Shown: in pieces, positions 23,409 to 39,297 of the stretch
Layout: each line of letters starts with the position of its first letter
Numbering within the stretch: the first letter of the stretch is position 1
Source of the DNA: Bacteroidia bacterium
GTDB taxonomy: Bacteria > Bacteroidota > Bacteroidia > NS11-12g > UBA955
Assembly: GCA_032111345.1 (NCBI GenBank)
Contig: JAULUW010000288.1
Coordinates: forward strand, 1 to 39,297
Length of the DNA: 39,297 nucleotides
Direction: 5' to 3'
Notes under the pieces: generated by a model
Databases searched by the model: none
What the model saw: the letters and a program-made list of their open reading frames with translations, nothing else
Told to the model about the DNA's origin: nothing
Position numbers and translations under genes: made by a program

Positions 23409-23465
23409 AATTCCCATAAAATCAATTGAAAGGCAAAACACTGCCCGAATCCCAACGCTTCGATG

Positions 23466-25730: not shown

Positions 25731-26201
25731 TTATCCCACAAGTGCCGATAACTCGGGATAGAAAGCTTCCATCGGATAAATTCCCATATCCAAAACATCC
25801 GCCATATAAGCGGGCGTAATTTCCGTTTGTAGCGCAATTGGCATCACCAGGCGGAAGTAAATGCTACCGGTTTCAGGTGAAATTCCAAGACTTCCCAAAG
25901 GCAACTGAAAATTAATATCAATCAATTTTTCAGCAATCGAGGTTCTATTATCCGCTGAAACTTTCAGATTGTATTCCCAATACATCTGTAAGAAAACCGA
26001 GCCATCTAAGTCATCCCCCATTGGGAATACGGTGAAGTTCAAGGCCCAATCTTTGAGTTCCGGTTTTTCCTCTTCCTCATAGGGGTAAACCAGTAACACT
26101 TTAAAAGGAAGTTCATTGAATTCTTCAATAAATTGTGCTTTATAGCCCAATTGTAGAATTTGATTCTGTATAATTTCTAGGGTATTGTCTTCGTTAATCA
26201 T
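25731..26201 (-). CDS. Small acidic protein, YbjN / type-III-secretion-chaperone-like (putative cargo chaperone)
   Basis: 156 aa and strongly acidic: my hand count gives ~25 Asp/Glu against ~8 Lys/Arg. The segment AEKLIDINFQLPLGSLGISPETGSIYFRLVMP resembles the YbjN-family core (LN..L..G.f.ld..g.l.fr). The gene lies 10 nt downstream of the 619-aa gene on the same strand. Confidence 0.45.
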   Translation of the reverse strand: MINEDNTLEIIQNQILQLGYKAQFIEEFNELPFKVLLVYPYEEEEKPELKDWALNFTVFPMGDDLDGSVFLQMYWEYNLKVSADNRTSIAEKLIDINFQLPLGSLGISPETGSIYFRLVMPIALQTEITPAYMADVLDMGIYPMEAFYPELSALVG

Positions 26202-26211
26202 GATAGTAATT

Positions 26212-28071
26212 TTAAATTTCTCTTTGTATCAAAGCTTTGTAAAGCATGGTGATTTGTTCCTTCTGATTACCATTCTGAGCAAATAGCTTACCAGGACTTA
26301 CTCCCATTGCTGAGATATACATTTCTAATTGTTTGGCTCGTGAATCAAATGCGGCTCCTTTCAATGATTTCAAATTTTGTATTTGTTGAAGGAGTGTATT
26401 TACTTGTTTCATTCTATAATCTCTTTTTGCCGCGGTTGATTTACTCGCATCAAATCCACTGGTTATAACATCCGATTCACCGCGCGCCTCTTTAGCTGCA
26501 TGTCGGTCCCGACCTGCTTGTTTTGCAACACGTGCGGCAGGCAATGCCACTTTAACTGAGGCCGAAGCTGCTTTCAAACTAGCGCCTGCGATGGCTCCTA
26601 CTCCTGTTAAATTCGCAATAGAACCCGCTAGGTTGGCAAATTCAGCAACTAACAAGATAGAATTTCTAACAATTCTCTTTTTATTGGCTTCGGCAATTTC
26701 GCCTACCATTGCATATTCTAGAACTTCAGGATTCGCTGCTTCAAGGTCATTTTTTTGAACCGCAACCACTGCGGTCTTATTCTTCATTTTGAGAATATTG
26801 GCATCTAGCGCTTTCTTCTCATTAATCAACCTTTGTTTATCTGATGTGGATTTAAAGAACCCTGTTTCATCAGATGCCGTTTTTATTTTTTCCTCCAATT
26901 GAGCAGATTTCTCCTCATCTTCAGATATGGCTACTTTATAATTTGAAATGGTTGCATCGTATTTTCTAAGTTCCTCAGATTTTTCTTTTACCACCGAACC
27001 TGGATCTTTTTCTTTTGATTCTTTTTCGGCAATCATCTGTTTGTAATCGCGATAAGAAATCACCAAGTAAAATCCTTCCTTGATAATAGCGATACCAGAA
27101 AGTGCGATGTCTAATCCTGGAATTGCGGCTGTAACGCCTCCGAAAGTCCCCCCATCTAATGCTTCTTTGACTCCGTTTATTACGGTTAAGACCGATTTAC
27201 CGGTTTCCACAAAGCCTTGCGCAATACCCAAACCCTCAATGGCTTTTTCCCTCTTACTGCTTTCGTTGCGCTCTTTGATCGTGGTAACCAATTGTTTTAC
27301 GGTTAGGAAACCGGTTTTAATAGCACCAATGGCATCACCCACACTACCCGACCAAGCACTCACAGCTTCTGAGTCGGAAGCCACTTTAGAGCCTTCGGAA
27401 GCAACCTCATTGGTAAAATCGGACGCCGCACCTACTGTACCCGCAATACCTTCGCCCATTTCAAATCCTGCTTCGATTTTATCTAAAAACTCTTTATTCG
27501 GATCCATTAAAGTAGTCAAGGAATCTGACATGGCCTTAATTCCGGAGGCAGTACCCATAACACTTGCGGCTACGGCTAAACCCTTCATATCTTTTTGAAC
27601 GGTTTCAGACAAATCGTCTTCTTCTTTTCCTTGTGCCTCGTTTACGGCCTTATAACCATCTTCAAATTCATCTTTTGCATCACCAATAACCCCAAATGCA
27701 TCATCCACAACCCCTTTTGCCTGATCACCCACCGATTCATCATCGCTATCGTCACGGCCTGCAGAGATGTCCGTGGCGGCGCCCGTCATGGTTTGACTTT
27801 TTGCTGTTCTATCGGCCACTGTTTTCTTGGCACTTGCTGCCATTCGAGCGCCTCCAACCATTGCCATTGCACTGCCCGCAACTGAAGGACCTGCCGCTTT
27901 CACAGGAGCCGTAGTTGTTGGTGCCGAAGTACTTGAGGAATTTGCTGCAACACTTGTTACTGGATTGGCAGGCAAGGTGGTTGATGCACCAGAGGCAGAA
28001 CCTGAATTGGTGGCAGTATTCGCCGATGGTGTACTCGTGTCCTGTTTTTTTAATTCTGCAGTTAAAGGCAT
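26212..28071 (-). CDS. Large hypothetical protein, candidate eCIS cargo/effector (alternative: tape-measure protein)
   Basis: 619-aa uninterrupted ORF. Residues 10-100 are Ser/Thr/Ala/Pro/Gly/Asn-rich with no aromatic residues, and residues ~105-160 form an acidic patch. Two long hydrophobic Gly/Ala-rich segments (aa ~309-340 GGVTAAIPGLDIALSGIAIIKEGFYLVISY and aa ~471-510 SILLVAEFANLAGSIANLTGVGAIAGASLKAASASVKVAL) flank a charged coiled-coil-like stretch. No known family was recognised. Confidence 0.5.
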   Translation of the reverse strand: MPLTAELKKQDTSTPSANTATNSGSASGASTTLPANPVTSVAANSSSTSAPTTTAPVKAAGPSVAGSAMAMVGGARMAASAKKTVADRTAKSQTMTGAATDISAGRDDSDDESVGDQAKGVVDDAFGVIGDAKDEFEDGYKAVNEAQGKEEDDLSETVQKDMKGLAVAASVMGTASGIKAMSDSLTTLMDPNKEFLDKIEAGFEMGEGIAGTVGAASDFTNEVASEGSKVASDSEAVSAWSGSVGDAIGAIKTGFLTVKQLVTTIKERNESSKREKAIEGLGIAQGFVETGKSVLTVINGVKEALDGGTFGGVTAAIPGLDIALSGIAIIKEGFYLVISYRDYKQMIAEKESKEKDPGSVVKEKSEELRKYDATISNYKVAISEDEEKSAQLEEKIKTASDETGFFKSTSDKQRLINEKKALDANILKMKNKTAVVAVQKNDLEAANPEVLEYAMVGEIAEANKKRIVRNSILLVAEFANLAGSIANLTGVGAIAGASLKAASASVKVALPAARVAKQAGRDRHAAKEARGESDVITSGFDASKSTAAKRDYRMKQVNTLLQQIQNLKSLKGAAFDSRAKQLEMYISAMGVSPGKLFAQNGNQKEQITMLYKALIQREI

Positions 28072-28196
28072 AGTGGTTTGATTAAATTCAAGGGTTTGCG
28101 TGCAATTTTAACTTCCTCACAAAAGAAAGTCCTGAACATCGATTCCACGATATCCTAACAAACCTTTGTGGAAAACTTAAGCGCCCTTGGGGAAGC

Positions 28197-29543
28197 TTAT
28201 TTTTTATTCAACTCCTCCTCAATCGCGTCAAGTAGTGTTTTTAAACGGATTTCCACCTTTTCAGCACCTACTTCACGCAAAATAACTTGTTTTACAATAT
28301 TCACAATTTGACCGCCCACAAGCTTATGTTCCTTTGCTATTAATCGCAAATCTATGTCCGTAGCTAAAGGCAAGGTACCTTCCAAAGCTTTTCTCCATAA
28401 CTCCCAACGGTATTCACCGTCTGGTGCCTCGAAGTAAATCATTTTTTGAAACCTCCTTAAAAAAGCGTCGTCTATTGAACTCTTTAAATTCGTGGCTAAA
28501 ATAAGCACCCCTGGATGATCCTCCATACGCTGTAGTAAAAAACCAACCTGCTGGTTTCCGTATCGCTCATTCGACTGTCCCGATTGCGAACGTTTGCCAA
28601 ATAGGGATTCACCCTCATCAAAAAACAAAATCCAATTCTTATTCCTCGCTTGCCTAAAAAGATTGTCGATATTCTTTTCGGTTTCTCCAATATACTTGGA
28701 ACTCAACTGCGATAAATCGATACGATATACGTCACGATTGTATTTTTTACCAATTAACCCCGCTACTAATGTTTTTCCTGTTCCTGAAGGACCATAAAAA
28801 ACCACCTTGTACCCTTCTTTGATTTTTCTTCCTAATCCCATTTCACCCAACATCCTTTTTTCGTATTCCAACCACAATTCTATATCCCGAATTTCTTTCA
28901 CAAGTTCTTTGGAAAGAACCACATCGGTCCATTCCATGTTTGTCTTAACCAATGAAGCGGGAAACTTACTTGAATAATTGGGCTTAGTAGCCACCCCTTT
29001 GGAAAAAATCTCCATATAATCGCTACTCAAGGAAAAAGGTTGAAAAGTTACAGGCAATCCCGGCTCTTTATAATCAAACAACAATATACCCTTTTCAAAA
29101 AGCCAATGTTCTGGGTTCAAACAATTCAAAACCAACATGCGTTCTTCCACAGATCCATTGGTCAATAAAAAAATGGCTGTTTCACCCGTGGGAATAAAGG
29201 GAGTTTGCGCCGTTCCAATAATTCCCCCTAAACGGGTTTCTGTATAATTAAAATCTTTGGCTGCTTTTAATATTGGATCAAATATTCTAGGCTTAAAATA
29301 CAAAGCCAATCCAATTACCACCAAACCCCGTTCAATGGCATTGAGATTCCAAGCACATACATTATTACTGTAAAAGCCGTTTTCTGATAATACCGGAGGT
29401 AAAATTTCTCCCTTATTTTCAATACGGTCTTTTAACTCCTCCGAAGCATTTCCAAGCTGATATTGAATTAAATTTTCAAGCCATATTAAGTCGGTTTCAA
29501 TATCGCTGGTGGATGATTTCGCCAAAGCCATGTTTATGTTCAA
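28197..29543 (-). CDS. AAA+ ATPase, Afp15/Pvc15-type eCIS assembly/cargo-loading ATPase
   Basis: Walker A FYGPSGTGKTLVAG, Walker B ILFFDEGESLF, sensor/arginine region LILATNLKSSIDDAFLRRF, and a ~220-aa non-ATPase N-terminal domain. It is transcribed divergently from the contractile-tail operon. Confidence 0.8.
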   Translation of the reverse strand: MNINMALAKSSTSDIETDLIWLENLIQYQLGNASEELKDRIENKGEILPPVLSENGFYSNNVCAWNLNAIERGLVVIGLALYFKPRIFDPILKAAKDFNYTETRLGGIIGTAQTPFIPTGETAIFLLTNGSVEERMLVLNCLNPEHWLFEKGILLFDYKEPGLPVTFQPFSLSSDYMEIFSKGVATKPNYSSKFPASLVKTNMEWTDVVLSKELVKEIRDIELWLEYEKRMLGEMGLGRKIKEGYKVVFYGPSGTGKTLVAGLIGKKYNRDVYRIDLSQLSSKYIGETEKNIDNLFRQARNKNWILFFDEGESLFGKRSQSGQSNERYGNQQVGFLLQRMEDHPGVLILATNLKSSIDDAFLRRFQKMIYFEAPDGEYRWELWRKALEGTLPLATDIDLRLIAKEHKLVGGQIVNIVKQVILREVGAEKVEIRLKTLLDAIEEELNKK

Positions 29544-29710
29544 TGATACAACTGAATTATCAGGAGTGCCAAATTTTGCCTTAAATTTATGTGTTTTTCC
29601 GAATCAAATCACCTCTGAAAACCTCCTTTTTCATGTACTATCACAGAATATAACATTGAAATCTCATTTAAAACCCATAGCATTGTACTTATTTGTAACT
29701 TGGATATAAT

Positions 29711-30070
29711 ATGAATCCTGATCACTTCTTCAAACAAATGGAACTCCGAACGGAGCGGGAGCTGTATCGGAAAAGTTTCCGAGCCGTTACCGATTCTCAG
29801 GATTCCTTGATGAAAAAGTTTGAAAACAACAAAAAAGAACGCTTGAAGCAAGGTTTTGCTCGTGAGGTTAAATGGTTCTTTCTTTCACTTCTTCTCGCTC
29901 CGGTGCTAGCATTCATTTTTTATTATCTTTTTGCCAATGTTATACCCGATCAACTTATTGAATTGGCGATTTATTTCGACGGTATCGAAACCTTGTTTTT
30001 TGTTATTTTAGGATTTTGTTTTCTAAGCATTTATATCACCCGCCTGATTCTATGGGCACTTAAAAAATAA
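29711..30070 (+). CDS. Small 2-TM membrane protein, first gene of the eCIS structural operon
   Basis: 119 aa with a charged N-terminal ~45 aa, then two hydrophobic helices (WFFLSLLLAPVLAFIFYYLFANV and LFFVILGFCFLSIYITRLILWAL). It ends 5 nt before the DUF4255 gene. Confidence 0.55.
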   Translation: MNPDHFFKQMELRTERELYRKSFRAVTDSQDSLMKKFENNKKERLKQGFAREVKWFFLSLLLAPVLAFIFYYLFANVIPDQLIELAIYFDGIETLFFVILGFCFLSIYITRLILWALKK

Positions 30071-30075
30071 GCAGC

Positions 30076-30642
30076 ATGGTATATGATGTTTTAAACGCCC
30101 TTTGTGAAGAACTCAATGCCCATTTAAAATACCAATTGAATACGCCTGAAGACGTATTGGTTTTTTCAAATTTGATGGATATTGCGGGTGCAAAAGCACT
30201 GCAAACTGAAAATCAGATTCACATGCAACTCATTCGCATCGAAGAAGACCGTACGCTCAACCGAGCAGGTGGATTTAGAGGCCTTGCCGCCGAAGCAGGT
30301 CCAAGATTGTTTCACGCACACATACTTTTTGCCGCCAACTTTTCTGGCAAACAATATCCAGATGGCGTGAGGTATCTCAATTTAATCCTCAATTACTTCG
30401 TTTCCAACCCTACATTAAACAGTTCCAATGTAAGCGATTTGCCTTCTCAAATAGATTCACTTTCCATAGAACTGAACAATTTGGAAGAGCGCGAACTGAG
30501 TAATTTATGGGGAACGATTGGGGCCAAGCTTTTACCTCATTTATATTATAAAATCTCATTAATCCCAGTATTTAGATCCACTGGGTTTGAACGAACCGCT
30601 CCGTTAATTAAAGGTATTTCTCCCAATCTGTTAAGAAAATGA
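30076..30642 (+). CDS. DUF4255 (Pvc16_N) tail terminator/cap protein, Afp16-like
   Basis: MVYDVLNALCEELNAHLKY..., IHMQLIRIEEDRTLNR, HILFAANF and ERELSNLWGTIGAKLLPHLYYKISLIPV follow the DUF4255 pattern as I remember it (LWGALGGKYLPSVLYKVRL-type C-terminal motif). Confidence 0.78.
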   Translation: MVYDVLNALCEELNAHLKYQLNTPEDVLVFSNLMDIAGAKALQTENQIHMQLIRIEEDRTLNRAGGFRGLAAEAGPRLFHAHILFAANFSGKQYPDGVRYLNLILNYFVSNPTLNSSNVSDLPSQIDSLSIELNNLEERELSNLWGTIGAKLLPHLYYKISLIPVFRSTGFERTAPLIKGISPNLLRK

Positions 30643-31469: not shown

Positions 31470-31474
31470 TGGTA

Positions 31475-31482
31475 TAGATTTG
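31475..31482 (+). promoter_or_regulatory. Candidate internal -7 promoter box (TAGATTTG) ahead of the sheath gene
   Basis: Exact TAnnTTTG, 45 nt upstream of the sheath ATG, inside the only sizeable (58 nt) intergenic gap of the structural operon. Confidence 0.3.
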
Positions 31483-31527
31483 CCATAGATCGAAAATAAT
31501 TAGTATAACAAAATAATAATTTAAAAA

Positions 31528-33396
31528 ATGGCAAATTACAAAACTCCGGGTGTGTATGTAGAAGAAATTTCTACGCTTCCTCCTTCCGTTGGCCAAGTAC
31601 CAACTGCGGTACCTGCTTTCGTTGGATACACCCAAAAGGCTATCAAAGGTGGTGCGAGTGTGAAACACGAAGCCGTTCACATTACATCCATGTTGGATTA
31701 TGTTGATTACTTTGGAGGTGGTTATATCCCCCAAGAAATCAATGTTTCCTTGAACGCGGCTTTGCAGGTTGAAAACATCAAACTTGACAAACAATTTTTC
31801 ATGTACGATACCGTACGTTTGTTTTTCTCTAATGGCGGCGGCGAATGTTACATCGTTTCTGTAGGGGATTATAACGATGATATCGATTATGACCAATTGC
31901 AGGAGGGAATGAACTCGGTAAAACGCGAAAATCAACCTACCATTTTAGCGAGTCCAGATGCCGTATTGTTAAAGAAAGCTGACGAATGTTACAGCTTACA
32001 ACAACAAATGTTGATGCAGTGTGCTGAAATGCAAAATCGTTTTGCGGTTTTGGACGTATTTGAAGGATTTATAAATCGCAAGGACAAAGACATCGTATTA
32101 AATTTCCGCAATGGTGTAGGTGTAAATAATCTGAAGTACGGTGCTGCATATTACCCTTGGGTTTACAATGCATTGCCACACAAATACAACCATGAAACCA
32201 TCAAAATTCAGGTAAATGGTGAAGACAAGCGTTTAGAAGAAATTTGTTCACACCCTATTTCAGTGAAAAACCTGAATATGTCTGTAATAGATCACGCTCG
32301 TGTTAAAGAATTCTCTAACGAGAAAAACTACAAAGCAGCCTTAACAGATTTGTTGGATAACATTAGCGGCGAAGAAGCCAACTATGCAGGAGCAACTACC
32401 TATTTAGGCGAGCAATTCAAAGCTCTTTACGATTTTGCAACTTCATTCTTCAATAGCGCGGCAATTTCCAATGAAATGAGCGTTAAAGTAAATGCCAGTT
32501 CTAAATTCTCTACCTTGCTTAAGTCATTCGCTAGTTTTGACGCGGCCGTGGGAGCTGGAGCATTTGCTGCCGACAAATTCCCAACCTTAGATTTGGGAGA
32601 AGCCATACCGATGCCCGCTATTGCGAATGCAGAAGGGGATGCACTTAAAAATAAAATCACTAAAGATACCGCTTACCATATTGGCGCAGAATTGCGTTCT
32701 GTTTTGGACAGCATATTGGAAGATGCCGATTCGATTAAAATCAACTTGGGCAAGATTGCATACGATTACAATCCTTTATTACAGAACATTGTAAACGAAA
32801 TCTACAAAGAACTTTCAAAAATTACCCCTTCTGGAGCTATCGCCGGTGTTTACGCCATGGTAGACAACCAGCGCGGTGTTTGGAAGGCTCCCGCAAATGT
32901 AAGTCTTGCAGGCGTATCTCGTCCGATTGTTAAAATTGATGATCGTGCACAAGAAGATCTTAACGTAGACGTAATTAGTGGAAAAAGTGTTAATGCAATT
33001 CGTTCTTTCACAGGTAAAGGAACCCTTGTATGGGGAGCTCGCACCTTAGCAGGTAACGATAACGAGTGGCGCTATGTTCCTGTACGTCGTTTCTTTAACA
33101 TGGTGGAAGACAGTGTGCGAAATGCTACCGGATGGGCTGTATTTGAACCTAACGATGCTTCTACTTGGATCCGGGTTAAGGCAATGATTGAAAATTACCT
33201 AACCAATCTTTGGAAAGCGGGAGCCATGGCCGGTGCTAGTGCCGATCAAGCATTCTTTGTTAATATCGGCTTAGGCACTACCATGTCTAGCGTAGATATT
33301 CTAGAAGGCCGCATGAATATTGAGATAGGCATGGCCGTTGTTCGTCCTGCTGAATTCATAATATTGAAATTCTCACACAAATTACAAGAATCATAA
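31528..33396 (+). CDS. Contractile tail sheath protein (Afp2-4/Pvc2-4 equivalent)
   Basis: The N-terminus MANYKTPGVYVEEISTLPPSVGQVPTAVPAFVGYT and the C-terminal half PSGAIAGVYAMVDNQRGVWKAPANV ... VNAIRSFTGKGTLVWGARTL ... WRYVPVRRF are classic phage sheath motifs. Confidence 0.93.
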   Translation: MANYKTPGVYVEEISTLPPSVGQVPTAVPAFVGYTQKAIKGGASVKHEAVHITSMLDYVDYFGGGYIPQEINVSLNAALQVENIKLDKQFFMYDTVRLFFSNGGGECYIVSVGDYNDDIDYDQLQEGMNSVKRENQPTILASPDAVLLKKADECYSLQQQMLMQCAEMQNRFAVLDVFEGFINRKDKDIVLNFRNGVGVNNLKYGAAYYPWVYNALPHKYNHETIKIQVNGEDKRLEEICSHPISVKNLNMSVIDHARVKEFSNEKNYKAALTDLLDNISGEEANYAGATTYLGEQFKALYDFATSFFNSAAISNEMSVKVNASSKFSTLLKSFASFDAAVGAGAFAADKFPTLDLGEAIPMPAIANAEGDALKNKITKDTAYHIGAELRSVLDSILEDADSIKINLGKIAYDYNPLLQNIVNEIYKELSKITPSGAIAGVYAMVDNQRGVWKAPANVSLAGVSRPIVKIDDRAQEDLNVDVISGKSVNAIRSFTGKGTLVWGARTLAGNDNEWRYVPVRRFFNMVEDSVRNATGWAVFEPNDASTWIRVKAMIENYLTNLWKAGAMAGASADQAFFVNIGLGTTMSSVDILEGRMNIEIGMAVVRPAEFIILKFSHKLQES

Positions 33397-33436
33397 GTCT
33401 AACCAAACTGTATAAAAAAATTAAAATAATATAATT

Positions 33437-33868
33437 ATGGCAGATCCAAATTATCCATTACCAAGGTTTCACTTTCGTGTAACCTTCGACAGCACGGTAA
33501 TTAACTGCAGCGAAGTTACCGGATTAAATACCGAACTTGATGTAATTGAGTACCGCGACGGTGCAAGCGTACTTTTCAGTACCCAAAAAATGAGTGGGTT
33601 AAGAAAATTCGGCGATATCGTGATAAAGAAAGGTGTTTTTGATAGCGACCAAGCCTATTGGGATTGGTACAGCTCCGTGGAAATGAATACGCCCGTGCGT
33701 AAAACCGTAACCATTGAATTGTTAGATGAAACACATTCACCTATAATGACATGGGCATTGACCAATGCATGGCCTAAGAAAGTTGAAAATCCAGACTTGA
33801 AGTCTGACGCTAGTGAAGTGGCCGTTGAATCCATTACTTTAGTGCACGAAGGTTTATCACTAGCTTAG
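33437..33868 (+). CDS. Tail tube protein (T4 gp19-like, Afp1/Pvc1 equivalent)
   Basis: YPLPRFHFRVTFD ... NCSEVTGL ... IEYRDG ... ITLVHEGL is the conserved phage tail tube pattern in a 143-aa protein. Confidence 0.9.
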   Translation: MADPNYPLPRFHFRVTFDSTVINCSEVTGLNTELDVIEYRDGASVLFSTQKMSGLRKFGDIVIKKGVFDSDQAYWDWYSSVEMNTPVRKTVTIELLDETHSPIMTWALTNAWPKKVENPDLKSDASEVAVESITLVHEGLSLA

Positions 33869-33879
33869 TAGCATAACCA

Positions 33880-34419
33880 ATGAGTGCTATCGATCTTCCA
33901 TTAGTAGGATTCCATTTTAGGGTTGATTTTATTTTAACGAAAAAAGCAAAATCGCTCCAAGGCCGCTTTCAAAAAATTGATGGCATAAGCAAAAAATGGG
34001 AATTTGAAACCAAAATGGAAGGCGAAAACACCGTGGAAGTTAAGTCTCCCCTTCGCACAAAAGAGGGCACCCTCGTTCTGCGAAGGGGACTTATCGTTCC
34101 ATCTCGAAAATCACCACAAGAACAATCTGGGTTCTTTGACCTGCTTGCATGGTTTGAAGAAAACATCACCGAAAATCGCCGCATTCCAATTCCCTTGGTG
34201 GTATCCGCTTTAAACGCCAATCACGATCCCGAACAATCGTGGTTTTTTTTTAATACCTATCCCATTTCATGGCAAACATCTGGCTTTGATGCTATGAATG
34301 GACAATCCATTATTATGGAAGAAATTAGCCTGAATTACGACAACTACAAACAGGTGAATACCAGCGGTATGAAATCTAAAGATATTTATACCTCAGCAAA
34401 GAAAGAACTTAATCTGTAA
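33880..34419 (+). CDS. Second tail tube-family protein (Afp5/Pvc5 equivalent)
   Basis: The LPLVGFHFRVDF N-terminal motif and the later ISWQTSGFDAMNGQSIIMEEISLNYD fit the tube family. It is longer (179 aa) than tube 1. Confidence 0.8.
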   Translation: MSAIDLPLVGFHFRVDFILTKKAKSLQGRFQKIDGISKKWEFETKMEGENTVEVKSPLRTKEGTLVLRRGLIVPSRKSPQEQSGFFDLLAWFEENITENRRIPIPLVVSALNANHDPEQSWFFFNTYPISWQTSGFDAMNGQSIIMEEISLNYDNYKQVNTSGMKSKDIYTSAKKELNL

Positions 34420-34443
34420 TACGTACATTTGAAAAAATGCCTT

Positions 34444-34638
34444 ATGACAGAAATTAAGAAACTCGTTATTAAAGCCTCCTTATCTTCGAATACCCTGCAT
34501 ACCCAAACCGATAATAAAGGAGAAAAATCCTTAAAAACTAACGATCTTGAAGAAAAACTGTCCGATTTAAAGGTCGAAATTGCCGATATGGTAGATCGAA
34601 AAATAGAACAATACCATAGAAAACAGAATAAACATTAA
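34444..34638 (+). CDS. Small charged coiled-coil protein at the Afp6 position
   Basis: 64 aa from the first in-frame ATG (the supplied ORF begins at a TTG at 34429). It carries a heptad-like segment LEEKLSDLKVEIADMVDRKIEQY and is tightly packed between tube 2 and the LysM gene. Confidence 0.5.
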   Translation: MTEIKKLVIKASLSSNTLHTQTDNKGEKSLKTNDLEEKLSDLKVEIADMVDRKIEQYHRKQNKH

Positions 34639-34650
34639 CTTCGAGTTGAT

Positions 34651-35388
34651 ATGTCGGAAACGAACTTCAACTACTTCGAAATTGCGGCTTATGAGGACGT
34701 TGATTGCAGCAAGGCGGTAAAACCTCAAAAAGGGTCTACCGTTTTCGATAGCAAAGTCTTGCTCTATCGATTTCCCTTTAATCCAAGCTCCTTAAAAGTT
34801 GGAACTACACACAACTATAATCTTTCACAACCCTTTGGTTATTCTGGAATCAATCCGAAATACATTGCCACCAAACCACGATTGGTAAACGTAGAGTTGG
34901 TTATTGATCCATCTGCAGAACCCCTTTATACCTATACCGAAGACACTGGAATTCCCGTTAAGGAAAGCAAAAAAACCCTATCTGAAAGGATGGAAATCTT
35001 TGAAACCTTGGTGGGTTATAACGCTTCCTCCCACCGTCCCAACTACCTAAAACTTTCCTGGGGGAAAACCCTCAAAATGAATACGGCTCTTAAAGAATTT
35101 CACGTTGTTTACGGCCGTTTTAATGAAAAAGGCGAACCTACGCGGGCCAATATACAAGTCGAATTTCTAGAGGTAATATCAGCAAAAAAAATGCTCACCG
35201 CCCAAGGTCGGCAGTCTCCTGATATCAGTCACATGGTAGAAGTTCAAGAAGGCGACACCCTGCCCCATTTATGTGAAAACATTTACGGGGATAAAAAATA
35301 TTACGTTGAAATTGCCAAAATTAACGGTATAAAATCCCTTCGTAAATTAAGTCCAGGTACCCAATTGTATTTTCCCCCACTCAAATAA
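34651..35388 (+). CDS. CIS tube-initiator protein with C-terminal LysM domain (Afp7/Pvc7 equivalent)
   Basis: The C-terminal VEVQEGDTLPHLCENIYGDKKYYVEIAKINGIKSLRKLSPGTQLYFP is a LysM motif. The N-terminal ~190 aa are tube-like (FPFNPSSLKV). The position immediately before the spike gene fits this role. Confidence 0.8.
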   Translation: MSETNFNYFEIAAYEDVDCSKAVKPQKGSTVFDSKVLLYRFPFNPSSLKVGTTHNYNLSQPFGYSGINPKYIATKPRLVNVELVIDPSAEPLYTYTEDTGIPVKESKKTLSERMEIFETLVGYNASSHRPNYLKLSWGKTLKMNTALKEFHVVYGRFNEKGEPTRANIQVEFLEVISAKKMLTAQGRQSPDISHMVEVQEGDTLPHLCENIYGDKKYYVEIAKINGIKSLRKLSPGTQLYFPPLK

Positions 35389-35391
35389 GCT

Positions 35392-37155
35392 ATGGCCGCA
35401 CCGACGAAAGATTACGAAACCGTTACCGTGGAAATTTCCATCAAAGGCAAGGTGTCTAAGCTCTCAGCACACGTACAAGAAATACGGGTTGAAAAACGCG
35501 TTAACAAAATAGCACGTGCCCAAATTTCCATAAACGATGGAGAGGTTTCCCAACAAAAATTCAGCCTCTTTGAGGAAAACCCTTTCAATATCGGCGACGA
35601 CATTATCATTAAAACGGGAGGTGATCCAAAATCACTCAAACAGTTGTATAAAGGCATTATTTCAGGTGTTTCTACGCAAATCGTGCATAAAAAAAGCCTT
35701 GTTCACATCGAATGTCTGGATAAAGCTATTGGAATGACCAAAGGAAGAAAAACCGATGTTTTCCTCAAAAAAAAGGACGATGCCATTATAAAAGAAATCA
35801 TAGCCAAAACTACCGGATTAACTGCCAAGGTAGATTCTTGCACGATCACCCATGAGAAATTGGTTCAATATGGGATTTCAGATTGGGATTTCACCCTAAT
35901 GCGCGCCGATGCCAATGGGCTCATTGTTTGTAATGCAGATGCCGAAGTAGCCGTTAAAGAACCCAAGCTCGCTGCCGCAGCAAGCGCTACCTATTCTTAC
36001 GGTGTAGATGTTCTTGCTTTTGAATCCCAAACTACGGGTGAATTTACGATAGCTAAATTTGCAGAAACCCATTGGGATTATAAATCTGGATCTGTAAAAA
36101 CAGGAAAATCCAGCGAAAGCAGTAAATTGGCAACTCCCAGTGCCTTGCCTTTTGCAAAAATACAAGCCTTCGCAAAACCTGCGGATGATACAGGAATTAC
36201 CACCGCTGGAATACAAAATGCCAACCAATTTAAAGAGGTATTAAATGCCAAAGTGATCCGCTCCTACTTGGCCTCTCAAAGGGGTTCGATAACGGTATCA
36301 GGTGATATTACTCCTGTTCTAGGCGATATTATTGAGGTAAAAGGATTGGGGAAATTGGCCGGAAAATTCTTCGTTGCAGGAATTGAACACCACGTTTTCG
36401 ATGGACAATTTATCACCAATTTTGAATTTGGGATGGATGAAAAAACCCATTTTGAAAAACATCCCTATATCCATAATGATAGCGTTGCTTCTTATGTAGG
36501 ATTTTCACATGGATTGCAATTAGGGGAAGTTACGAAATTAGATGGCGACCCAGAAGGCCAACAACGCATACAAGTCAAACTGCCGGTTTTTGGATCCGAT
36601 GCTTTGTTTTGGGCTCGACTGAGTTTCCCCGATGCAGGAAAAAATCGGGGAATCTTTTTTGTCCCCGAAAAAGGCGATGAAGTGGTGGTTTCCTTTTTAG
36701 ATGGTGACCCAGCACAACCCGTTATTCTCGGTACTCTTTACAATAAATCGAACACAGCGCCCGAAAAAATTACGGCTACCAACAACAAACGCATTATACA
36801 ATCAAAAAAGAAGGTTATTATTGAATTTGATGATGAAAAGAAAAATTTAACCTTAAAAACTCCTGGGGGAAATTCTATTTTGATGGATGATGCAAAAGGC
36901 ATTACTCTGAAAGATAAAAACGGCAATTCTATTGAGTTGGGAAGTGCAGGTATCACCCTAAAAACCATGAAAGAAATTTCCTTAAAAGCAACAAAGGGAA
37001 TCAAAATAACCGCCGATGCGGGGCCCGTGAAAATTGCCGGACTCCAAATCGATGGCCAAGCAAAAACCACACTTAAAATGGCAGGAAAAGCGAGCGCCGA
37101 AGTTTCTGCCTCTGGAATGATGACGATCAAAGGCGCACTCGTAAAAATAAACTAA
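35392..37155 (+). CDS. VgrG-like central spike (gpD-like plus gp5 OB-fold plus beta-helix, Afp8/Pvc8 equivalent)
   Basis: GIFFVPEKGDEVVVSFLDGDPAQPVILGTLYN is the Phage_base_V/gp5 motif. The upstream gpD-like region shows ARAQISINDG and YKGIISGV. A C-terminal repetitive beta-helix follows (LTLKTPGGNSILMDD, ITLKDKNGNSIELG, ITLKTMKEISLKA). Confidence 0.9.
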   Translation: MAAPTKDYETVTVEISIKGKVSKLSAHVQEIRVEKRVNKIARAQISINDGEVSQQKFSLFEENPFNIGDDIIIKTGGDPKSLKQLYKGIISGVSTQIVHKKSLVHIECLDKAIGMTKGRKTDVFLKKKDDAIIKEIIAKTTGLTAKVDSCTITHEKLVQYGISDWDFTLMRADANGLIVCNADAEVAVKEPKLAAAASATYSYGVDVLAFESQTTGEFTIAKFAETHWDYKSGSVKTGKSSESSKLATPSALPFAKIQAFAKPADDTGITTAGIQNANQFKEVLNAKVIRSYLASQRGSITVSGDITPVLGDIIEVKGLGKLAGKFFVAGIEHHVFDGQFITNFEFGMDEKTHFEKHPYIHNDSVASYVGFSHGLQLGEVTKLDGDPEGQQRIQVKLPVFGSDALFWARLSFPDAGKNRGIFFVPEKGDEVVVSFLDGDPAQPVILGTLYNKSNTAPEKITATNNKRIIQSKKKVIIEFDDEKKNLTLKTPGGNSILMDDAKGITLKDKNGNSIELGSAGITLKTMKEISLKATKGIKITADAGPVKIAGLQIDGQAKTTLKMAGKASAEVSASGMMTIKGALVKIN

Positions 37156-37160
37156 ACGAT

Positions 37161-37460
37161 ATGCCTCCAGCTGCTCGAGTAACCGACCTCCACACTTGCC
37201 CCATGCAAACACCCGCATTGGTGCCAATTCCGCACGTAGGTGGACCCATTGTGGGTCCAGGTGCCCCCACTGTTTTAATCGGTGGACTTCCTGCCGCCGT
37301 TGTAGGAGACCTGTGTATTTGTGTGGGTCCCCCCGATGTGATTTCAAAGGGTTCTTCCACGGTCAAAATAGGTGGCAAGCCCGCTGCACGCTTAGGCGAC
37401 CCTACTGCCCACGGGGGCAAAGTGATGAGTTTATGTCCCACTGTTTTAATTGGAGGATGA
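37161..37460 (+). CDS. PAAR-domain spike-tip protein (Afp10/Pvc10 equivalent)
   Basis: Motifs MPPAARVTDLHTCP, GAPTVLIGGLPAAVVGD and GGKPAARLGDPTAHGG, with a 99-aa Gly/Pro-rich sequence. Confidence 0.92.
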   Translation: MPPAARVTDLHTCPMQTPALVPIPHVGGPIVGPGAPTVLIGGLPAAVVGDLCICVGPPDVISKGSSTVKIGGKPAARLGDPTAHGGKVMSLCPTVLIGG

Positions 37461-37873
37461 GCGCAAATCAAAAAAACACTGCGTTTTTAGGAATTGGATT
37501 GAAACAGCCTTTCAAGATCAATCCCTCCACCGGTAAAACCGGTTTGGTAAGCGGCATAGAGAATATCGAACAGAGTATTCAAGCAATTTTATCTACCAAG
37601 CCAGGTGAACGCCTTTATCATAAAGATTTTGGTATCGATTTATCTGAATTATTATTTGAATCCCAAGATTCAGCTACGTTAAAATCTCTAGAGGAGAAAA
37701 TCACCAGTGGGTTAATGCAGTTTCAAACAATGATTATTGTAGATTCCGTAAAGTTTGAGCTTGATGCCCAAAAAGGAATCGTTCATATTGATGTGGCCTT
37801 TACCATCCGCAATACCAACACAAGGGGTAACTACGTATATCCGTATTATATCAAAGAAGCCAACCAGTTTTAA
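37457..37873 (+). CDS. GPW/gp25-family baseplate wedge protein (Afp9/Pvc9 equivalent)
   Basis: GIENIEQSIQAILSTKPGERLYHKDFGIDLSELLFE is the gp25 signature. The ATG at 37457 overlaps the PAAR stop (ATGA). The longer 225-aa ORF in the supplied track is an out-of-frame read-through of the PAAR gene. Confidence 0.88.
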   Translation: MSANQKNTAFLGIGLKQPFKINPSTGKTGLVSGIENIEQSIQAILSTKPGERLYHKDFGIDLSELLFESQDSATLKSLEEKITSGLMQFQTMIIVDSVKFELDAQKGIVHIDVAFTIRNTNTRGNYVYPYYIKEANQF

Positions 37874-37878
37874 TTCTC

Positions 37879-39297
37879 ATGCCTTGGAACCGTAACGAAA
37901 CGCGCTATAATTTGGATCTTGCCATAGGCGATACGTCACAAATACGGCTTAAAAAATCACAAGGTATCGTTCCCGTTCCATCCAAGGAAGATATCTTTTC
38001 AGCTATCTTACACCTTTCTAAACAAATTCAATTTTACGATTCCCAAGCGCAAACAGATGGCAGTCTTAATCGCTTCTTTGGAAGCAGTTTGCCTTTAGTA
38101 TTGGGACATGTATGTGGTAACGCTATTTCGAACAGTTTTAAAGATTTAAGAAATTCGATTCGCGAAACTAAACAACGTTGGCAAGGGGGCTCAAGCACCT
38201 TAAATAGGCATCGGATCAATATCTACCGTTCGCTCAGCTTTCAATTTGAAAGTCTTGAGATGCTGAAAAATGCCGCTATTGCTGAACAATCTGAAATATC
38301 CGATCTATGTAGTGGTTACATTCCTTTGGTCAATCAGTATACGAGAATAATGGGCAGATGGAATGCCATGGGGGTAATATCTCAAATACGCAAACTGAAT
38401 ATTCAGCTGTCACATATCACCACCAACTATAAAACCGAAGAATCCCCAGAAGTTCCAACTTTTTGGTTCCATCAAATTATTGAAATTCAAAGCGATATAG
38501 ATAATCTTGAAATAAAGTGGCGGAAACTCCGAGAGCAATGTAAGCAGATTCTTGAAAATATCATTGCCGAACAAAGACTCGATCCATTAACCACAATTCC
38601 CTTTATTTTAGGGGAAATTATTGAAGAGTTTAGCCAAAATCAAGCTCATCATATTCAAAAGAAATTGAGTGCCTATTTTTTGGAAAAACGTTCTGGGTTG
38701 AATCGATTTGAAATTGTGCCCGAAGAACTTTACGCACAATATGAATGGAATACCGAATCTGAGAAGAAATCACTGCCCCAAGGTCAAACTTTTCATTCCC
38801 GAGAAATCGACCCTGAAGATCCAAGCACTGAGTACATAACGCTAACATCATCAGACAATTACCCTCTCAATGCACAACAAATTCTGCGAAGTGCTGATAT
38901 TTTCTGTTCAACTAAAACACGCACGCTTATATCTGAAAACAAAATTCATATCAATACCGCGTTCCCGTCAAAATACAAATTAGAAACCATCCATAACGAG
39001 GCTAATCATGCATTAACGCCCTTTGTTTTTTCAATCAAAAGTACCCTCTTTAACATCTGGGGGAATGTAGTAAAATGGGAAATAAAATTTCAATTTGCTT
39101 TAAACGAACTCAAAGATTTCATGGCCGCACAATTCGAGCTACAAAGCGGCTTAAAACAAAGTTTTGGTGAGGATTCCCTCTCAAAAATCTGGCAATTGTA
39201 TTTTTTCAAAGCCTTCCGTATCGAATACGACAGTCTAGAAGAACGCGCTCCAATATCGGTTCAAAATACGCAGTTGCATGTTGAAATCTTGGAAGCG
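37879..39297 (+). CDS. Large ORF at the baseplate (Afp11/gp6-like) position, 3'-truncated by the window end
   Basis: I translated it by hand from the ATG at 37879: 473 codons with no stop up to position 39297 (MPWNRNETRYNLDLAIGDTSQIRLKK...). It starts 5 nt after gp25. No motif was recognised, so the function is inferred from position only. Confidence 0.6.
   Translation, partial: MPWNRNETRYNLDLAIGDTSQIRLKKSQGIVPVPSKEDIFSAILHLSKQIQFYDSQAQTDGSLNRFFGSSLPLVLGHVCGNAISNSFKDLRNSIRETKQRWQGGSSTLNRHRINIYRSLSFQFESLEMLKNAAIAEQSEISDLCSGYIPLVNQYTRIMGRWNAMGVISQIRKLNIQLSHITTNYKTEESPEVPTFWFHQIIEIQSDIDNLEIKWRKLREQCKQILENIIAEQRLDPLTTIPFILGEIIEEFSQNQAHHIQKKLSAYFLEKRSGLNRFEIVPEELYAQYEWNTESEKKSLPQGQTFHSREIDPEDPSTEYITLTSSDNYPLNAQQILRSADIFCSTKTRTLISENKIHINTAFPSKYKLETIHNEANHALTPFVFSIKSTLFNIWGNVVKWEIKFQFALNELKDFMAAQFELQSGLKQSFGEDSLSKIWQLYFFKAFRIEYDSLEERAPISVQNTQLHVEILEA

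What the first reader, a model, noticed from the sequence alone, without database searches (positions are those of the whole stretch)
25731..39297. Phage-tail-like extracellular contractile injection system (eCIS) locus embedded in a Bacteroidota chromosome
The translations directly show a sheath (YKTPGVYVEE / GVWKAPAN / VWGARTL), two gp19-like tube proteins, a LysM tube initiator and a VgrG-like spike with the gp5 motif. They also show PAAR, gp25, a DUF4255 cap and an AAA+ ATPase. This is essentially the Afp/PVC core set (Afp16, 2-4, 1, 5, 7, 8, 10, 9, 15). No capsid, portal, terminase, integrase or lysis cassette is visible, and the left flank is housekeeping (surE-lpxB), which argues against a prophage. 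The single long sheath gene, the DUF4255 cap, the LysM protein and the Afp15-type ATPase argue against a T6SS. Only a few Bacteroidota CIS have been characterised (MAC-like, Amoebophilus T6SS-iv, AlgoCIS). This locus holds at least six ORFs with no recognisable family interleaved with the core genes: 25731-26201, 26212-28071, 29711-30070, 30639-31469, 34444-34638 and 37879 onward.
Basis: partly seen in the sequence, partly recalled or inferred. Interest (0 to 1): 0.85.

Follow-up and report, generated by a model that had tools for sequence, protein, structure and literature searches.

The report
AlgoCIS-type contractile injection system locus
This stretch of an uncultured marine Bacteroidia chromosome encodes a phage-tail-like injection machine of an already described type (the group that includes AlgoCIS), together with a probable toxin cargo and its helper protein, so it is real but not a new kind of system.

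Summary
Window 25731-39297 encodes a contractile injection system (CIS): AAA+ ATPase, Pvc16_N cap, one sheath, two gp19 tube proteins, a CIS_tube/LysM initiator, VgrG, PAAR and gp25. All pass Pfam thresholds.

The sheath is closest to AlgoCIS (E 1e-133), then Anabaena tCIS and SalCIS. That places the locus in clade Ib, not the Afp/PVC clade.

Most of the six "unknown" ORFs can now be placed:
- 30639-31469 is the Cis16B/Alg16B cap adaptor (profile and Foldseek hits only to the three solved cap adaptors).
- 34444-34638 is probably the Cis6 plug.
- 37879-end is the N-terminal part of a 1205-aa Cis11/Alg11-type baseplate protein.
- 26212-28071 and 25731-26201 are a swappable cargo gene with an acidic YbjN-like partner. 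One cargo homolog carries the eCIS_core/DUF4157 domain.
- 29711-30070, a strongly conserved two-TM protein, stays unexplained.

In relatives the cluster continues with a Cis13-like fibre, Cis12 and a tape-measure protein of about 2000 aa.

It is not a prophage and not a canonical T6SS. Gene content cannot separate an extracellular mode from a T6SSiv-like anchored mode. Verdict: new member of a known kind, moderate-to-low interest.

The parts
25731..26201 (-). Small acidic (pI 4.05) YbjN-like partner of the cargo. Probably a cargo chaperone, alternatively an immunity protein.
   Evidence: Sub-threshold YbjN hits in three diverged members (E 2.4e-4 to 4.5e-3). A homologous ORF of 153-168 aa (70/32/20% identity) lies directly downstream of every cargo homolog examined, including pairs with no CIS genes nearby. 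pI is 4.0-4.8. It is replaced together with the cargo in L004-L007.
26212..28071 (-). Candidate CIS cargo/effector, 619 aa. The first ~100 aa are low-complexity S/T/A/P (70% STAPG), followed by an acidic stretch and a ~450-aa conserved C-terminal module with Gly/Ala-rich hydrophobic segments and a coiled coil.
   Evidence: No Pfam, NCBIfam, PHROG or PDB sequence hit. The family has 22 detected members. Homolog P0026 has a disordered N-terminus, an eCIS_core/DUF4157 domain, and then the same C-terminal module. The slot next to the ATPase holds an unrelated protein in L004-L007. The real tape measure lies elsewhere. Composition.
28197..29531 (-). AAA+ ATPase (Cis15/Alg15-type by position). Inferred cargo loader.
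   Evidence: Pfam AAA 1.8e-26. 86% and 63% identity to the syntenic orthologs. The role is inferred from Alg15 experiments (bioRxiv 10.64898/2026.05.27.728243).
29711..30070 (+). Conserved 119-aa membrane protein of unknown function. It has a basic N-terminal ~54-aa stretch followed by two predicted TM helices.
   Evidence: Hydropathy peaks at about residues 51-83 and 82-118; pI 9.27. It sits directly upstream of the cap gene in L002, L003, L004-7, L011 and L014. It is 61-63% identical in loci where the cap adaptor is only 28-40% identical. No family hit.
30076..30642 (+). Short cap / tail terminator (Cis16A/Alg16A type, 188 aa).
   Evidence: Pvc16_N 7.7e-23 covers the whole protein. The length matches Alg16A (197 aa) rather than Afp16/Pvc16 (~295 aa) (PMC8894135).
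30639..31469 (+). Cap adaptor (Cis16B/Alg16B/SalCis16b homolog, 276 aa).
   Evidence: A 13-sequence profile hits only SalCis16b (2.6e-7), All3326 (3.3e-5) and the AlgoCIS cap adaptor (6.8e-5) in the PDB. The AF2 model has pLDDT 89. Foldseek gives 7b5i_AB at 2.9e-9 and 7adz_1A at 3.1e-9, and these are the only hits below 1e-3.
31528..33396 (+). Single contractile sheath protein (Cis2).
   Evidence: Phage_sheath_1C 3.6e-16. PDB sequence hits: AlgoCIS Alg2 1e-133, tCIS All3325 5e-117, SalCIS 2.5e-116, Pvc/Afp 1e-38 to 1e-67.
33437..33868 (+). Inner tube protein (Cis1).
   Evidence: Phage_T4_gp19 3.3e-41. It is the most conserved protein of the cluster, 87-98% identical to relatives.
33880..34419 (+). 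Second gp19-like tube protein (Cis5, tube-initiator layer).
   Evidence: Phage_T4_gp19 4e-19.
34444..34638 (+). Probable plug (Cis6/Alg6/Afp6), 64 aa.
   Evidence: It lies between Cis5 and Cis7 in all relatives. It has a conserved N-terminal strand, a variable linker and a C-terminal helix, the architecture reported for Alg6. The top PDB hit of the ortholog profile is Asl3322, a 50-aa trimer in the tCIS baseplate, sharing EIxxLVIKAS, but E is only 0.73.
34651..35388 (+). Tube initiator with C-terminal LysM domain (Cis7).
   Evidence: CIS_tube 8.4e-25; LysM 3.2e-3, sub-threshold.
35392..37155 (+). VgrG-like spike (Cis8).
   Evidence: Phage_base_V 2.7e-21; weak Phage_GPD.
37161..37460 (+). PAAR spike tip (Cis10).
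   Evidence: PAAR_motif 1.3e-27.
37457..37873 (+). gp25-like sheath initiator (Cis9).
   Evidence: GPW_gp25 3e-16; Sheath_initiator 1.4e-10.
37879..39297 (+). N-terminal 473 aa of a Cis11/Alg11-type (gp6-like) baseplate wedge protein, cut off by the end of the window.
   Evidence: The full ortholog in L002 is 1205 aa (65% identity). Its residues ~500-1170 match SalCis11 (5e-28), All3317 (7e-15) and Alg11 (7e-15) collinearly. It also gives a faint Baseplate_J hit. It is the fastest-evolving structural part, 65% and 44% identical to relatives.

Best explanation
The region is the larger part of a chromosomal, vertically inherited clade Ib contractile injection system cluster (the AlgoCIS / tCIS / SalCIS / MAC / T6SSiv group) in an uncultured Bacteroidia bacterium.

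Shown by homology:
- The plus-strand operon encodes, in order: a small membrane protein, a two-part cap (Cis16A and the Cis16B adaptor), one sheath, the tube, a second tube-like protein, the plug, a LysM tube initiator, a VgrG spike, PAAR, gp25 and a long Cis11 baseplate protein.
- In relatives the operon continues with a Cis13-like short fibre, Cis12 and a very large tape-measure protein.

Inferred from established CIS biology and the AlgoCIS experiments:
- The baseplate nucleates on spike, plug and initiator.
- Tube and sheath polymerise along the tape measure and are closed by the double cap.
- Contraction drives the tube and spike into a target.

Inferred for the minus-strand unit:
- It encodes the AAA+ ATPase followed by a swappable two-gene payload.
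- The payload is a 619-aa protein with a disordered N-terminus that acts as a loading signal and a Gly/Ala-rich, probably membrane-active C-terminal module.
- Next to it is an acidic protein with a type-III-chaperone-like (YbjN-like) profile that keeps the cargo loading-competent, or else neutralises it.
- The ATPase would unfold the cargo and load it into the tube lumen.

Whether the particle is released by lysis (eCIS) or fires from a membrane-attached position (T6SSiv-like or tCIS-like) cannot be read from the genes. I lean slightly towards eCIS.
For: - Core set passes Pfam thresholds.
- Sheath is closest to AlgoCIS, tCIS and SalCIS.
- Cap adaptor is shown by profile search and by structure.
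- Plug fits by position and architecture, and its top PDB hit is the tCIS plug-sized trimer.
- The Cis11 ortholog is collinear with SalCis11, All3317 and Alg11.
- In L002, Cis12 hits All3315, Alg12 and SalCis12, and the fibre N-terminus resembles Cis13 All3316.
- The tape-measure homolog P0028 has a CIS_TMP domain (6e-30).
- Synteny next to surE-lpxB holds in relatives with 55-94% identical cap adaptors.
- There are no relatives in viral contigs.
- Cargo: a DUF4157/eCIS_core fusion in homolog P0026; the slot is replaced by an unrelated gene pair in L004-7; the N-terminus is disordered; the partner is conserved, acidic and YbjN-like.
- Literature on cargo architecture, the Alg15 loader and the tape-measure rule: PMC8894135, bioRxiv 10.64898/2026.05.27.728243, PMC8213781.
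Against: - No experimental data exist for this organism.
- The window stops inside Cis11, so Cis13, Cis12 and the tape measure are inferred from relatives that are 65-98% identical per protein.
- The window cargo itself has no DUF4157 domain and no recognisable toxin domain.
- The plug assignment rests on a non-significant E-value (0.73) plus position.
- YbjN hits are all below Pfam's gathering score.
- The ATPase matches only the general AAA family, so its Cis15 role is positional.
- The strongly conserved two-TM protein has no counterpart in the AlgoCIS description and may point to a membrane-coupled mode.
Confidence: 0.85

Rival explanations
1. Same machine, different mode of action. It would be a cell-anchored clade Ib system (T6SSiv-like, tCIS-like or SalCIS-like) that fires from the producer's membrane rather than as a released particle. 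The conserved 119-aa two-TM protein would be part of the anchor or trigger.
For: Clade Ib contains T6SSiv, the thylakoid-anchored tCIS and the membrane-proximal SalCIS with the same gene set. The 119-aa membrane protein is the third most conserved gene of the cluster and heads the structural operon. Cis11, whose cage is the anchoring site in T6SSiv, is the fastest-evolving part (PMC8894135).
Against: The L002 relative has a Cis13-like short fibre with a soluble C-terminal domain and no TM segment. Cis13 is described as typical of marine CIS (PMC12210884). A tape measure that fixes particle length is present. No SalCis20-like hydrolase or other large membrane protein is seen in the cluster.
Confidence: 0.35
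2. The 619-aa protein is the tape measure (Afp14/Alg14 equivalent), or a tape-measure-related effector like Streptomyces Tme, rather than a free lumenal cargo.
For: Its size is close to Alg14 (526 aa). It is adjacent to the ATPase, as afp14 is to afp15. It has hydrophobic helices and a coiled coil like tape measures. DUF4157 also occurs on the tape-measure-like effector Tme (PMC11126660).
Against: A separate gene with a genuine CIS_TMP domain follows Cis12 in relatives. The 619-aa slot holds a non-homologous protein in L004-7 while all structural genes are conserved. Homologs occur as orphan pairs with no CIS genes within 10 kb. It gives no CIS_TMP hit.
Confidence: 0.07
3. A defective prophage or myovirus tail module (tailocin-like remnant).
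For: All the core proteins are phage-tail homologs.
Against: No capsid, portal, terminase, integrase or lysis genes in the window or in the flanks of seven syntenic loci. No tRNA is present. The chromosomal site is identical across diverged lineages. CIS-specific parts are present: Pvc16_N cap, cap adaptor, CIS_tube, CIS_TMP and the AAA+ ATPase. No relatives are found in IMG/VR.
Confidence: 0.02
4. A canonical T6SS (subtypes i-iii).
For: It shares VgrG, PAAR, gp25 (TssE-like) and a contractile sheath.
Against: It has one long sheath gene rather than a TssB/TssC pair. No Tss membrane-complex or ClpV families appear among the called genes of the window or its relatives. It has a tape measure, a LysM initiator and a Pvc16_N cap.
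Confidence: 0.01

Closest known systems
AlgoCIS of Algoriphagus machipongonensis (clade Ib eCIS; PDB 7ADZ/7AEB; PMC8894135)
   Same: - It has the best-matching sheath (E 1e-133).
- Both have a short Cis16A cap plus a Cis16B cap adaptor, confirmed here by profile and Foldseek.
- Both have a small plug gene between Cis5 and Cis7, a LysM initiator and a long Cis11 with a large extra region.
- Both have a Cis12, an AAA+ ATPase and cargo with a disordered N-terminus.
   Different: - The window cargo lacks DUF4157, and its C-terminal module is an uncharacterised family.
- The cargo has a YbjN-like partner gene, which is not described for AlgoCIS.
- A conserved 119-aa two-TM protein heads the operon.
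- The fibre in relatives is a short Cis13-like protein rather than Alg19.
- The tape measure in relatives is about 2000 aa against 526 aa for Alg14.
- No Alg11 cage fold was demonstrated here.
Anabaena PCC 7120 thylakoid-anchored CIS (tCIS; PDB 7B5H/7B5I; PMC8894136)
   Same: - The sheath is the second-best match (5e-117).
- Cis16B (All3326) is the top structural match of the 276-aa ORF.
- Asl3322 is the top hit of the plug profile.
- The All3316 (Cis13) N-terminal motif is shared with the 235-aa protein of L002.
- All3315 (Cis12) and All3317 (Cis11) match the L002 orthologs.
   Different: - No Cis19 crown gene was detected.
- The Cis13-like protein has no C-terminal TM domain.
- The host has no thylakoids, so that anchoring mode cannot apply as such.
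SalCIS of Salmonella enterica subsp. salamae (clade Ib; PDB 9R9H/9R9N/9RCE; PMC13266070)
   Same: - SalCis16b gives the best sequence-profile match to the 276-aa ORF, over its full length (2.6e-7).
- SalCis11 gives the best match to the Cis11 ortholog (5e-28).
- The ATPase lies next to putative cargo genes in both.
   Different: No SalCis20-like membrane hydrolase is present. The membrane protein here is a 119-aa hairpin with no enzymatic domain.
Afp / PVC (clade Ia eCIS)
   Same: Overall gene repertoire and the Afp1-16 nomenclature.
   Different: - Afp/PVC have three sheath paralogs against one here.
- They have a long single cap (~295 aa) and no cap adaptor.
- Their sheath similarity to this locus is much lower (1e-38 to 1e-67).
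- Their Afp11 is shorter.

Membership tests
Clade Ib CIS (AlgoCIS / tCIS / SalCIS / MAC / T6SSiv group) | Sheath groups with clade Ib sheaths, and there is a single sheath gene | tested here: met
   The three best PDB sequence hits are AlgoCIS, tCIS and SalCIS sheaths (1e-133 to 2.5e-116). Pvc/Afp sheaths score 1e-38 to 1e-67. There is one sheath ORF. No tree was built.
Clade Ib CIS (AlgoCIS / tCIS / SalCIS / MAC / T6SSiv group) | Two-component cap: a short Cis16A plus a Cis16B cap adaptor | tested here: met
   The 188-aa protein is covered by Pvc16_N alone. The 276-aa ORF matches only the solved cap adaptors, by profile and by Foldseek (E ~3e-9, probability 1.00).
Clade Ib CIS (AlgoCIS / tCIS / SalCIS / MAC / T6SSiv group) | Plug protein (Cis6/Alg6) between Cis5 and Cis7 | tested here: inconclusive
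   Position, size and strand-linker-helix layout fit. The top PDB hit is the tCIS 50-aa trimer Asl3322 with a shared EIxxLVIKAS motif, but E is 0.73.
Clade Ib CIS (AlgoCIS / tCIS / SalCIS / MAC / T6SSiv group) | Cis11 with a large extra domain forming a spike cage | tested here: inconclusive
   The ortholog is 1205 aa and collinear with Alg11 (1050 aa), All3317 (1231 aa) and SalCis11 (1323 aa) over the C-terminal ~650 aa.
Clade Ib CIS (AlgoCIS / tCIS / SalCIS / MAC / T6SSiv group) | Tape measure with a CIS_TMP domain, plus a Cis12 baseplate protein | tested here: met
   This was met in relatives only, outside the window. The L002 836-aa protein hits All3315, Alg12 and SalCis12. The giant ORF's homolog P0028 has CIS_TMP at 6e-30.
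Extracellular CIS (released particle mode) | Particles free in the cytoplasm and released to the medium, with fibres binding a target | not testable with these tools
   The only indirect hint is a Cis13-like short fibre without a TM domain in L002.
T6SS subtype iv / membrane-anchored clade Ib systems | Baseplate attached to the producer's membrane; contact-dependent firing | not testable with these tools
   The conserved 119-aa two-TM protein is compatible with this mode but is not evidence for it.
Canonical T6SS (i-iii) | TssB/TssC sheath pair, TssJLM or TssN-R membrane complex, ClpV | tested here: not met
   None of these families appears among the Pfam hits of the window ORFs or among the called genes of L003-L007 and L014.
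Prophage / myovirus tail module | Linked capsid, portal, terminase, integrase or lysis genes | tested here: not met
   The window flank is SurE, LpxB, an outer-membrane protein and a two-component system. In relatives the cluster ends after the tape measure, followed by TPR and GH18 genes. There is no tRNA and no IMG/VR relative.
DUF4157/eCIS_core-type cargo (Cgo1/Cgo2-like, eCIS-associated toxins) | eCIS_core (PF13699) domain between a disordered N-terminus and a toxin C-terminal domain | tested here: not met
   The window protein has the disordered N-terminus but no PF13699 hit. Only the distant homolog P0026 carries it (E 9.7e-8). It works like such a cargo but is not a member by domain.
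YbjN / type-III-chaperone-like small proteins | Match to PF10722 above the gathering score (22 bits) | tested here: inconclusive
   Scores are 18.0, 21.8 and 17.7 bits in three diverged members, all just below the cut-off. Size, acidity and adjacency to the cargo fit.

The most novel reading that the evidence does not exclude
This Bacteroidia lineage may carry a distinct clade Ib variant defined by three features that are not described for any characterised CIS.
1. A strongly conserved 119-aa two-TM protein heads the structural operon and could couple the particle to the membrane, as an anchor, a firing trigger or a release factor.
2. A tape measure of about 2000 aa would, under the AlgoCIS rule of ~0.22 nm per residue, give particles of about 0.4 um, three to four times longer than AlgoCIS.
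3. Cargo is handled by a dedicated type-III-chaperone-like partner that travels with the toxin gene, even outside CIS loci.
Probability: 0.2. Interest if true: 0.6.

Novelty: new member of a known kind. Interest (0 to 1): 0.3.

Why it matters
The locus adds one more clade Ib CIS from an uncultured marine Bacteroidia lineage to a group already catalogued in the thousands. That by itself is of limited consequence.

Three by-products are more useful:
- A new cargo family of about 450 aa, Gly/Ala-rich and probably membrane-active, comes paired with an acidic YbjN-like partner. The pair could be a handle on how hydrophobic cargo is kept loadable for the AAA+ loader.
- A small membrane protein is more conserved than most structural parts. 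It is a concrete candidate for the unsolved question of what decides between the released and the membrane-coupled mode in clade Ib.
- A natural tape measure of about 2000 aa would test the tape-measure rule far outside the range that has been engineered.

Tried and rejected
- Single-sequence PDB searches found nothing useful for the 276-aa ORF, the 64-aa ORF and the 619-aa ORF.
- A 6-sequence profile of the 276-aa ORF gave only a non-significant All3326 hit (E 1.4). AF2 on that shallow alignment was poor (pLDDT 48) and its Foldseek search was meaningless. The exhaustive profile search and the 13-sequence alignment then resolved the question.
- PHROGs and NCBIfam gave nothing for the unknown ORFs.
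- I first considered the 619-aa protein a tape measure. I rejected this after finding the CIS_TMP-bearing giant gene and the slot replacement.
- I looked for a shared C-terminal motif between the two unrelated slot proteins. The profile search did not support one.
- Attempts to extend downstream through JGI metagenome contigs found nothing. The exact window sheath is only on a 2.7-kb Logan contig.
- The faint EAD9 hit in P0026 (E 0.004) lies on a coiled coil and was disregarded.
- The NCBIfam 'IteA anti-phage ATPase' hit of the ATPase (84.7 bits against a cut-off of 510) is generic AAA similarity.

Full report
**1. The observation**

Pfam confirms the core set above gathering thresholds:

| Component | Window coordinates | Pfam family | E-value |
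|---|---|---|---|
| AAA+ ATPase | 28197-29543, minus strand | AAA | 1.8e-26 |
| Cap | 30076-30642 | Pvc16_N/DUF4255 | 7.7e-23 |
| Sheath | 31528-33396 | Phage_sheath_1C | 3.6e-16 |
| Tube | 33437-33868 | Phage_T4_gp19 | 3.3e-41 |
| Second tube-like | 33880-34419 | Phage_T4_gp19 | 4e-19 |
| Tube initiator | 34651-35388 | CIS_tube (plus sub-threshold LysM) | 8.4e-25 |
| Spike | 35392-37155 | Phage_base_V | 2.7e-21 |
| Spike tip | 37161-37460 | PAAR_motif | 1.3e-27 |
| Sheath initiator | 37457-37873 | GPW_gp25 / Sheath_initiator | 3e-16 / 1.4e-10 |

- The ATPase most likely starts at ATG 29531, giving 444 aa like its orthologs.
- The left flank is SurE (1e-67), a conserved 98-aa ORF, LpxB (3e-86), an outer-membrane beta-barrel protein and a LytTR two-component system.
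- The window holds no tRNA.

**2. Which kind of CIS**

A sequence search of the PDB with the sheath ranks the matches as follows:
- AlgoCIS Alg2: 1e-133
- Anabaena tCIS All3325: 5e-117
- SalCIS sheath: 2.5e-116
- Pvc/Afp sheaths: 1e-38 to 1e-67
- Pyocin and T4 sheaths: about 1e-6

The locus therefore belongs with the clade Ib systems, not with Afp/PVC. This clade contains released particles (AlgoCIS, MACs), the membrane-anchored T6SSiv, the thylakoid-anchored tCIS and the membrane-proximal SalCIS (PMC8894135, PMC8894136, PMC13266070).

Those features are a single sheath, a DUF4255 cap, a LysM protein and an AAA+ ATPase, and T6SSiv-like systems have them too.

**3. Relatives and chromosomal context**

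- A MAG annotated 'Bacteroidia bacterium' (L002) carries a syntenic cluster.
- So do a relative whose cap adaptor is 94% identical (L003, NCBI GCA_965655465.1), a set of ENA metagenome scaffolds (L004-L007, cap adaptor 55% identical) and L014/L015.
- In all of them the cluster sits at the same site: surE, the 98-aa ORF, lpxB, a payload slot, the ATPase (divergent), then the structural operon.
- That pattern indicates vertical inheritance of a chromosomal system, not a mobile prophage.
- No relative of the sheath was found in IMG/VR.

Downstream of the point where the window ends, L002 shows the rest of the operon:
- The last window ORF is the start of a 1205-aa protein.
- Next comes a 235-aa protein whose N-terminal motif resembles Cis13 (All3316) of tCIS (E 0.23, top hit).
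- Next comes an 836-aa protein matching All3315, Alg12 and SalCis12.
- Last comes a giant ORF of more than 1440 aa. Its only detected homolog, P0028 (1988 aa, 64% identity), ends in a CIS_TMP domain (6e-30).
- In P0028's contig the cluster ends there, followed by TPR and GH18 genes.

**4. The 'unknown' ORFs**

*(a) 30639-31469, 276 aa.*
- Word-indexed search found only 5 homologs.
- An exhaustive profile search of 1.84 billion representatives found 13.
- A 13-sequence profile hits exactly three PDB sequences: SalCis16b (2.6e-7, full length), All3326 (tCIS Cis16B, 3.3e-5) and the AlgoCIS cap adaptor (6.8e-5).
- With that alignment AF2 gives pLDDT 89 and pTM 0.82.
- Foldseek returns 7b5i_AB (2.9e-9) and 7adz_1A (3.1e-9) as the only hits below 1e-3.
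- This ORF is the cap adaptor. The 188-aa Pvc16_N protein before it is the short Cis16A cap, comparable to the 197-aa Alg16A.

*(b) 34444-34638, 64 aa.*
- It is conserved between Cis5 and Cis7 in all relatives.
- It has an invariant N-terminal strand (KLVIKASL), a variable linker and a C-terminal helix. This is the layout reported for the Alg6 plug.
- The ortholog profile's top PDB hit is Asl3322, a 50-aa protein present as three chains in the tCIS baseplate, sharing EIxxLVIKAS. The E-value is only 0.73.
- I call it a probable plug.

*(c) 37879-end.*
- The L002 ortholog aligns collinearly from about residue 500 to 1170 with SalCis11 (5e-28), All3317 and Alg11 (7e-15 each).
- It also gives a faint Baseplate_J hit.
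- The window piece is therefore the N-terminal part of the gp6-like wedge protein. In clade Ib that protein carries the inserted cage domain (Alg11 residues 278-643).
- The cage fold itself was not tested.
- This is the fastest-evolving structural protein of the cluster: 65% and 44% identity, where the sheath is 96% and 84%.

*(d) 26212-28071 (619 aa) and 25731-26201 (156 aa).*
- The first ~100 residues of the 619-aa protein are 70% S/T/A/P/G. An acidic stretch follows, then a C-terminal module with Gly/Ala-rich hydrophobic segments and a coiled coil.
- The family has 22 detected members.
- One member, P0026, has a disordered N-terminus, an eCIS_core/DUF4157 domain (9.7e-8) and then the same C-terminal module. 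This is the architecture of eCIS-associated toxins and of AlgoCIS Cgo1/Cgo2 (PMC8213781, PMC8894135).
- In AlgoCIS the disordered N-terminus is the loading signal, DUF4157 is dispensable, and the AAA+ Alg15 is required for loading but not for assembly (bioRxiv 10.64898/2026.05.27.728243).
- In L004-L007 every structural gene is conserved, but the slot next to the ATPase holds a non-homologous Gly-rich protein (BLASTP E 3.9; no profile match). The neighbouring small gene is also unrelated. This is a swappable payload slot.
- Every cargo homolog examined is followed, on the same strand and within about 20 bp, by a homologous ORF of 153-168 aa. This holds in L012 and L013, where no CIS genes lie within 10 kb.
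- These partner proteins are acidic (pI 4.0-4.8).
- Three diverged partners hit YbjN just below threshold (17.7-21.8 bits against a cut-off of 22).
- I read the pair as cargo plus a dedicated chaperone. Immunity is the alternative.

*(e) 29711-30070, 119 aa.*
- It has a basic ~54-aa N-terminus and two predicted TM helices.
- It sits directly upstream of the cap gene in L002, L003, L004-7, L011 and L014. In L009 it lies just downstream of the cap adaptor, on the opposite strand.
- It is 61-63% identical where the cap adaptor is 28-40% identical.
- Only the tube and the sheath are more conserved.
- No family matches, and nothing like it is described for AlgoCIS, tCIS or SalCIS in the papers read.
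- It is the one truly unexplained component. A membrane tether or trigger, or a holin-like release factor, are hypotheses without direct support.

**5. Mechanism**

Shown by homology: all parts of a clade Ib particle are present.

Inferred from AlgoCIS, Afp and T4 knowledge:
1. Spike, plug and LysM initiator nucleate the baseplate with gp25, Cis11 and Cis12.
2. Tube and sheath grow along the tape measure.
3. Cis16A and Cis16B close the distal end.
4. The ATPase loads the cargo into the lumen through its disordered N-terminus.
5. Contraction expels the tube, the spike and the cargo.

The tape measure of about 2000 aa would predict a particle of about 430-455 nm under the AlgoCIS coefficients of 0.216-0.229 nm per residue. 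This is an extrapolation far beyond the tested range. It also rests on a relative, not on the window.

**6. Rivals**

- A T6SSiv-like or otherwise membrane-coupled mode remains open, at about 0.35.
- The tape-measure reading of the 619-aa protein is unlikely, at about 0.07.
- Prophage and canonical T6SS readings are effectively excluded.

**7. Novelty and score**

CIS loci are catalogued in large numbers: 631 loci in dbeCIS, 1,425 loci in 1,249 genomes, and 1,129 from MAGs. They are enriched in Bacteroidota, and Cis13-type fibres are typical of marine ones.

This locus is a new member of a known kind. Its interest lies in three side features: the cargo and partner family, the conserved membrane protein, and the giant tape measure. 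I score it 0.3.

Noticed in passing
L002:17084-21404 (runs off the locus) and L008:110-6076: The tape-measure gene of this lineage is very large. It is more than 1440 aa in L002 and 1988 aa in P0028, with CIS_TMP only at residues 1716-1985. Alg14 is 526 aa. L002 also carries tandem low-complexity repeats (ETIESKTIDSN..., PQ-rich) that P0028 lacks.
   Followed up: partly
window 23199-23456: There is a remnant of a PIN-domain toxin gene between the outer-membrane protein gene and surE (52% identity over 86 aa to the L003 PIN protein). Relatives L003 and L014 have an intact DUF2281-PIN pair at this position. The window has lost the antitoxin gene and part of the toxin gene.
   Followed up: partly
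L004:5696-7285 versus L005:5774-7546: The unrelated payload protein in this lineage varies in length between near-identical scaffolds (529, 590 aa). This is apparently caused by copy number of an N-terminal repeat (AAGKSMYRGGAYVGSGMS). A second Gly-rich basic 189-aa protein lies next to it on the opposite strand.
   Followed up: partly
L003:17242-20831: In the closest relative the Cis11 gene is called as two ORFs (208 and 1007 aa). This suggests a frameshift or an assembly error. Its N-terminal part is only 75% identical to the window, although the cap adaptor and the cargo protein are 94% and 96% identical.
   Followed up: no
L012:10001-12912 and L013:10001-12498: Cargo-plus-partner gene pairs occur with no CIS structural genes within 10 kb. 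In L013 the neighbouring genes (Coat_F, YetF) look like those of a spore-forming Firmicute. The pair therefore spreads independently of this CIS lineage.
   Followed up: partly
window 24247-24543: A 98-aa ORF with no family hit overlaps the end of surE and lies between surE and lpxB. It is called at the same position in all syntenic relatives (98-99 aa).
   Followed up: no
L008:6057-9231: Directly after the tape-measure gene in this relative lie a TPR protein (opposite strand) and a GH18 chitinase-family protein. Whether they belong to the CIS is unknown.
   Followed up: no
window 15916-19493: A LytTR response regulator and a 976-aa histidine kinase lie about 6 kb upstream of the cluster. They are present near the cluster in L014 but not in L004-L007, so a regulatory link to the CIS is not supported by synteny.
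   Followed up: no
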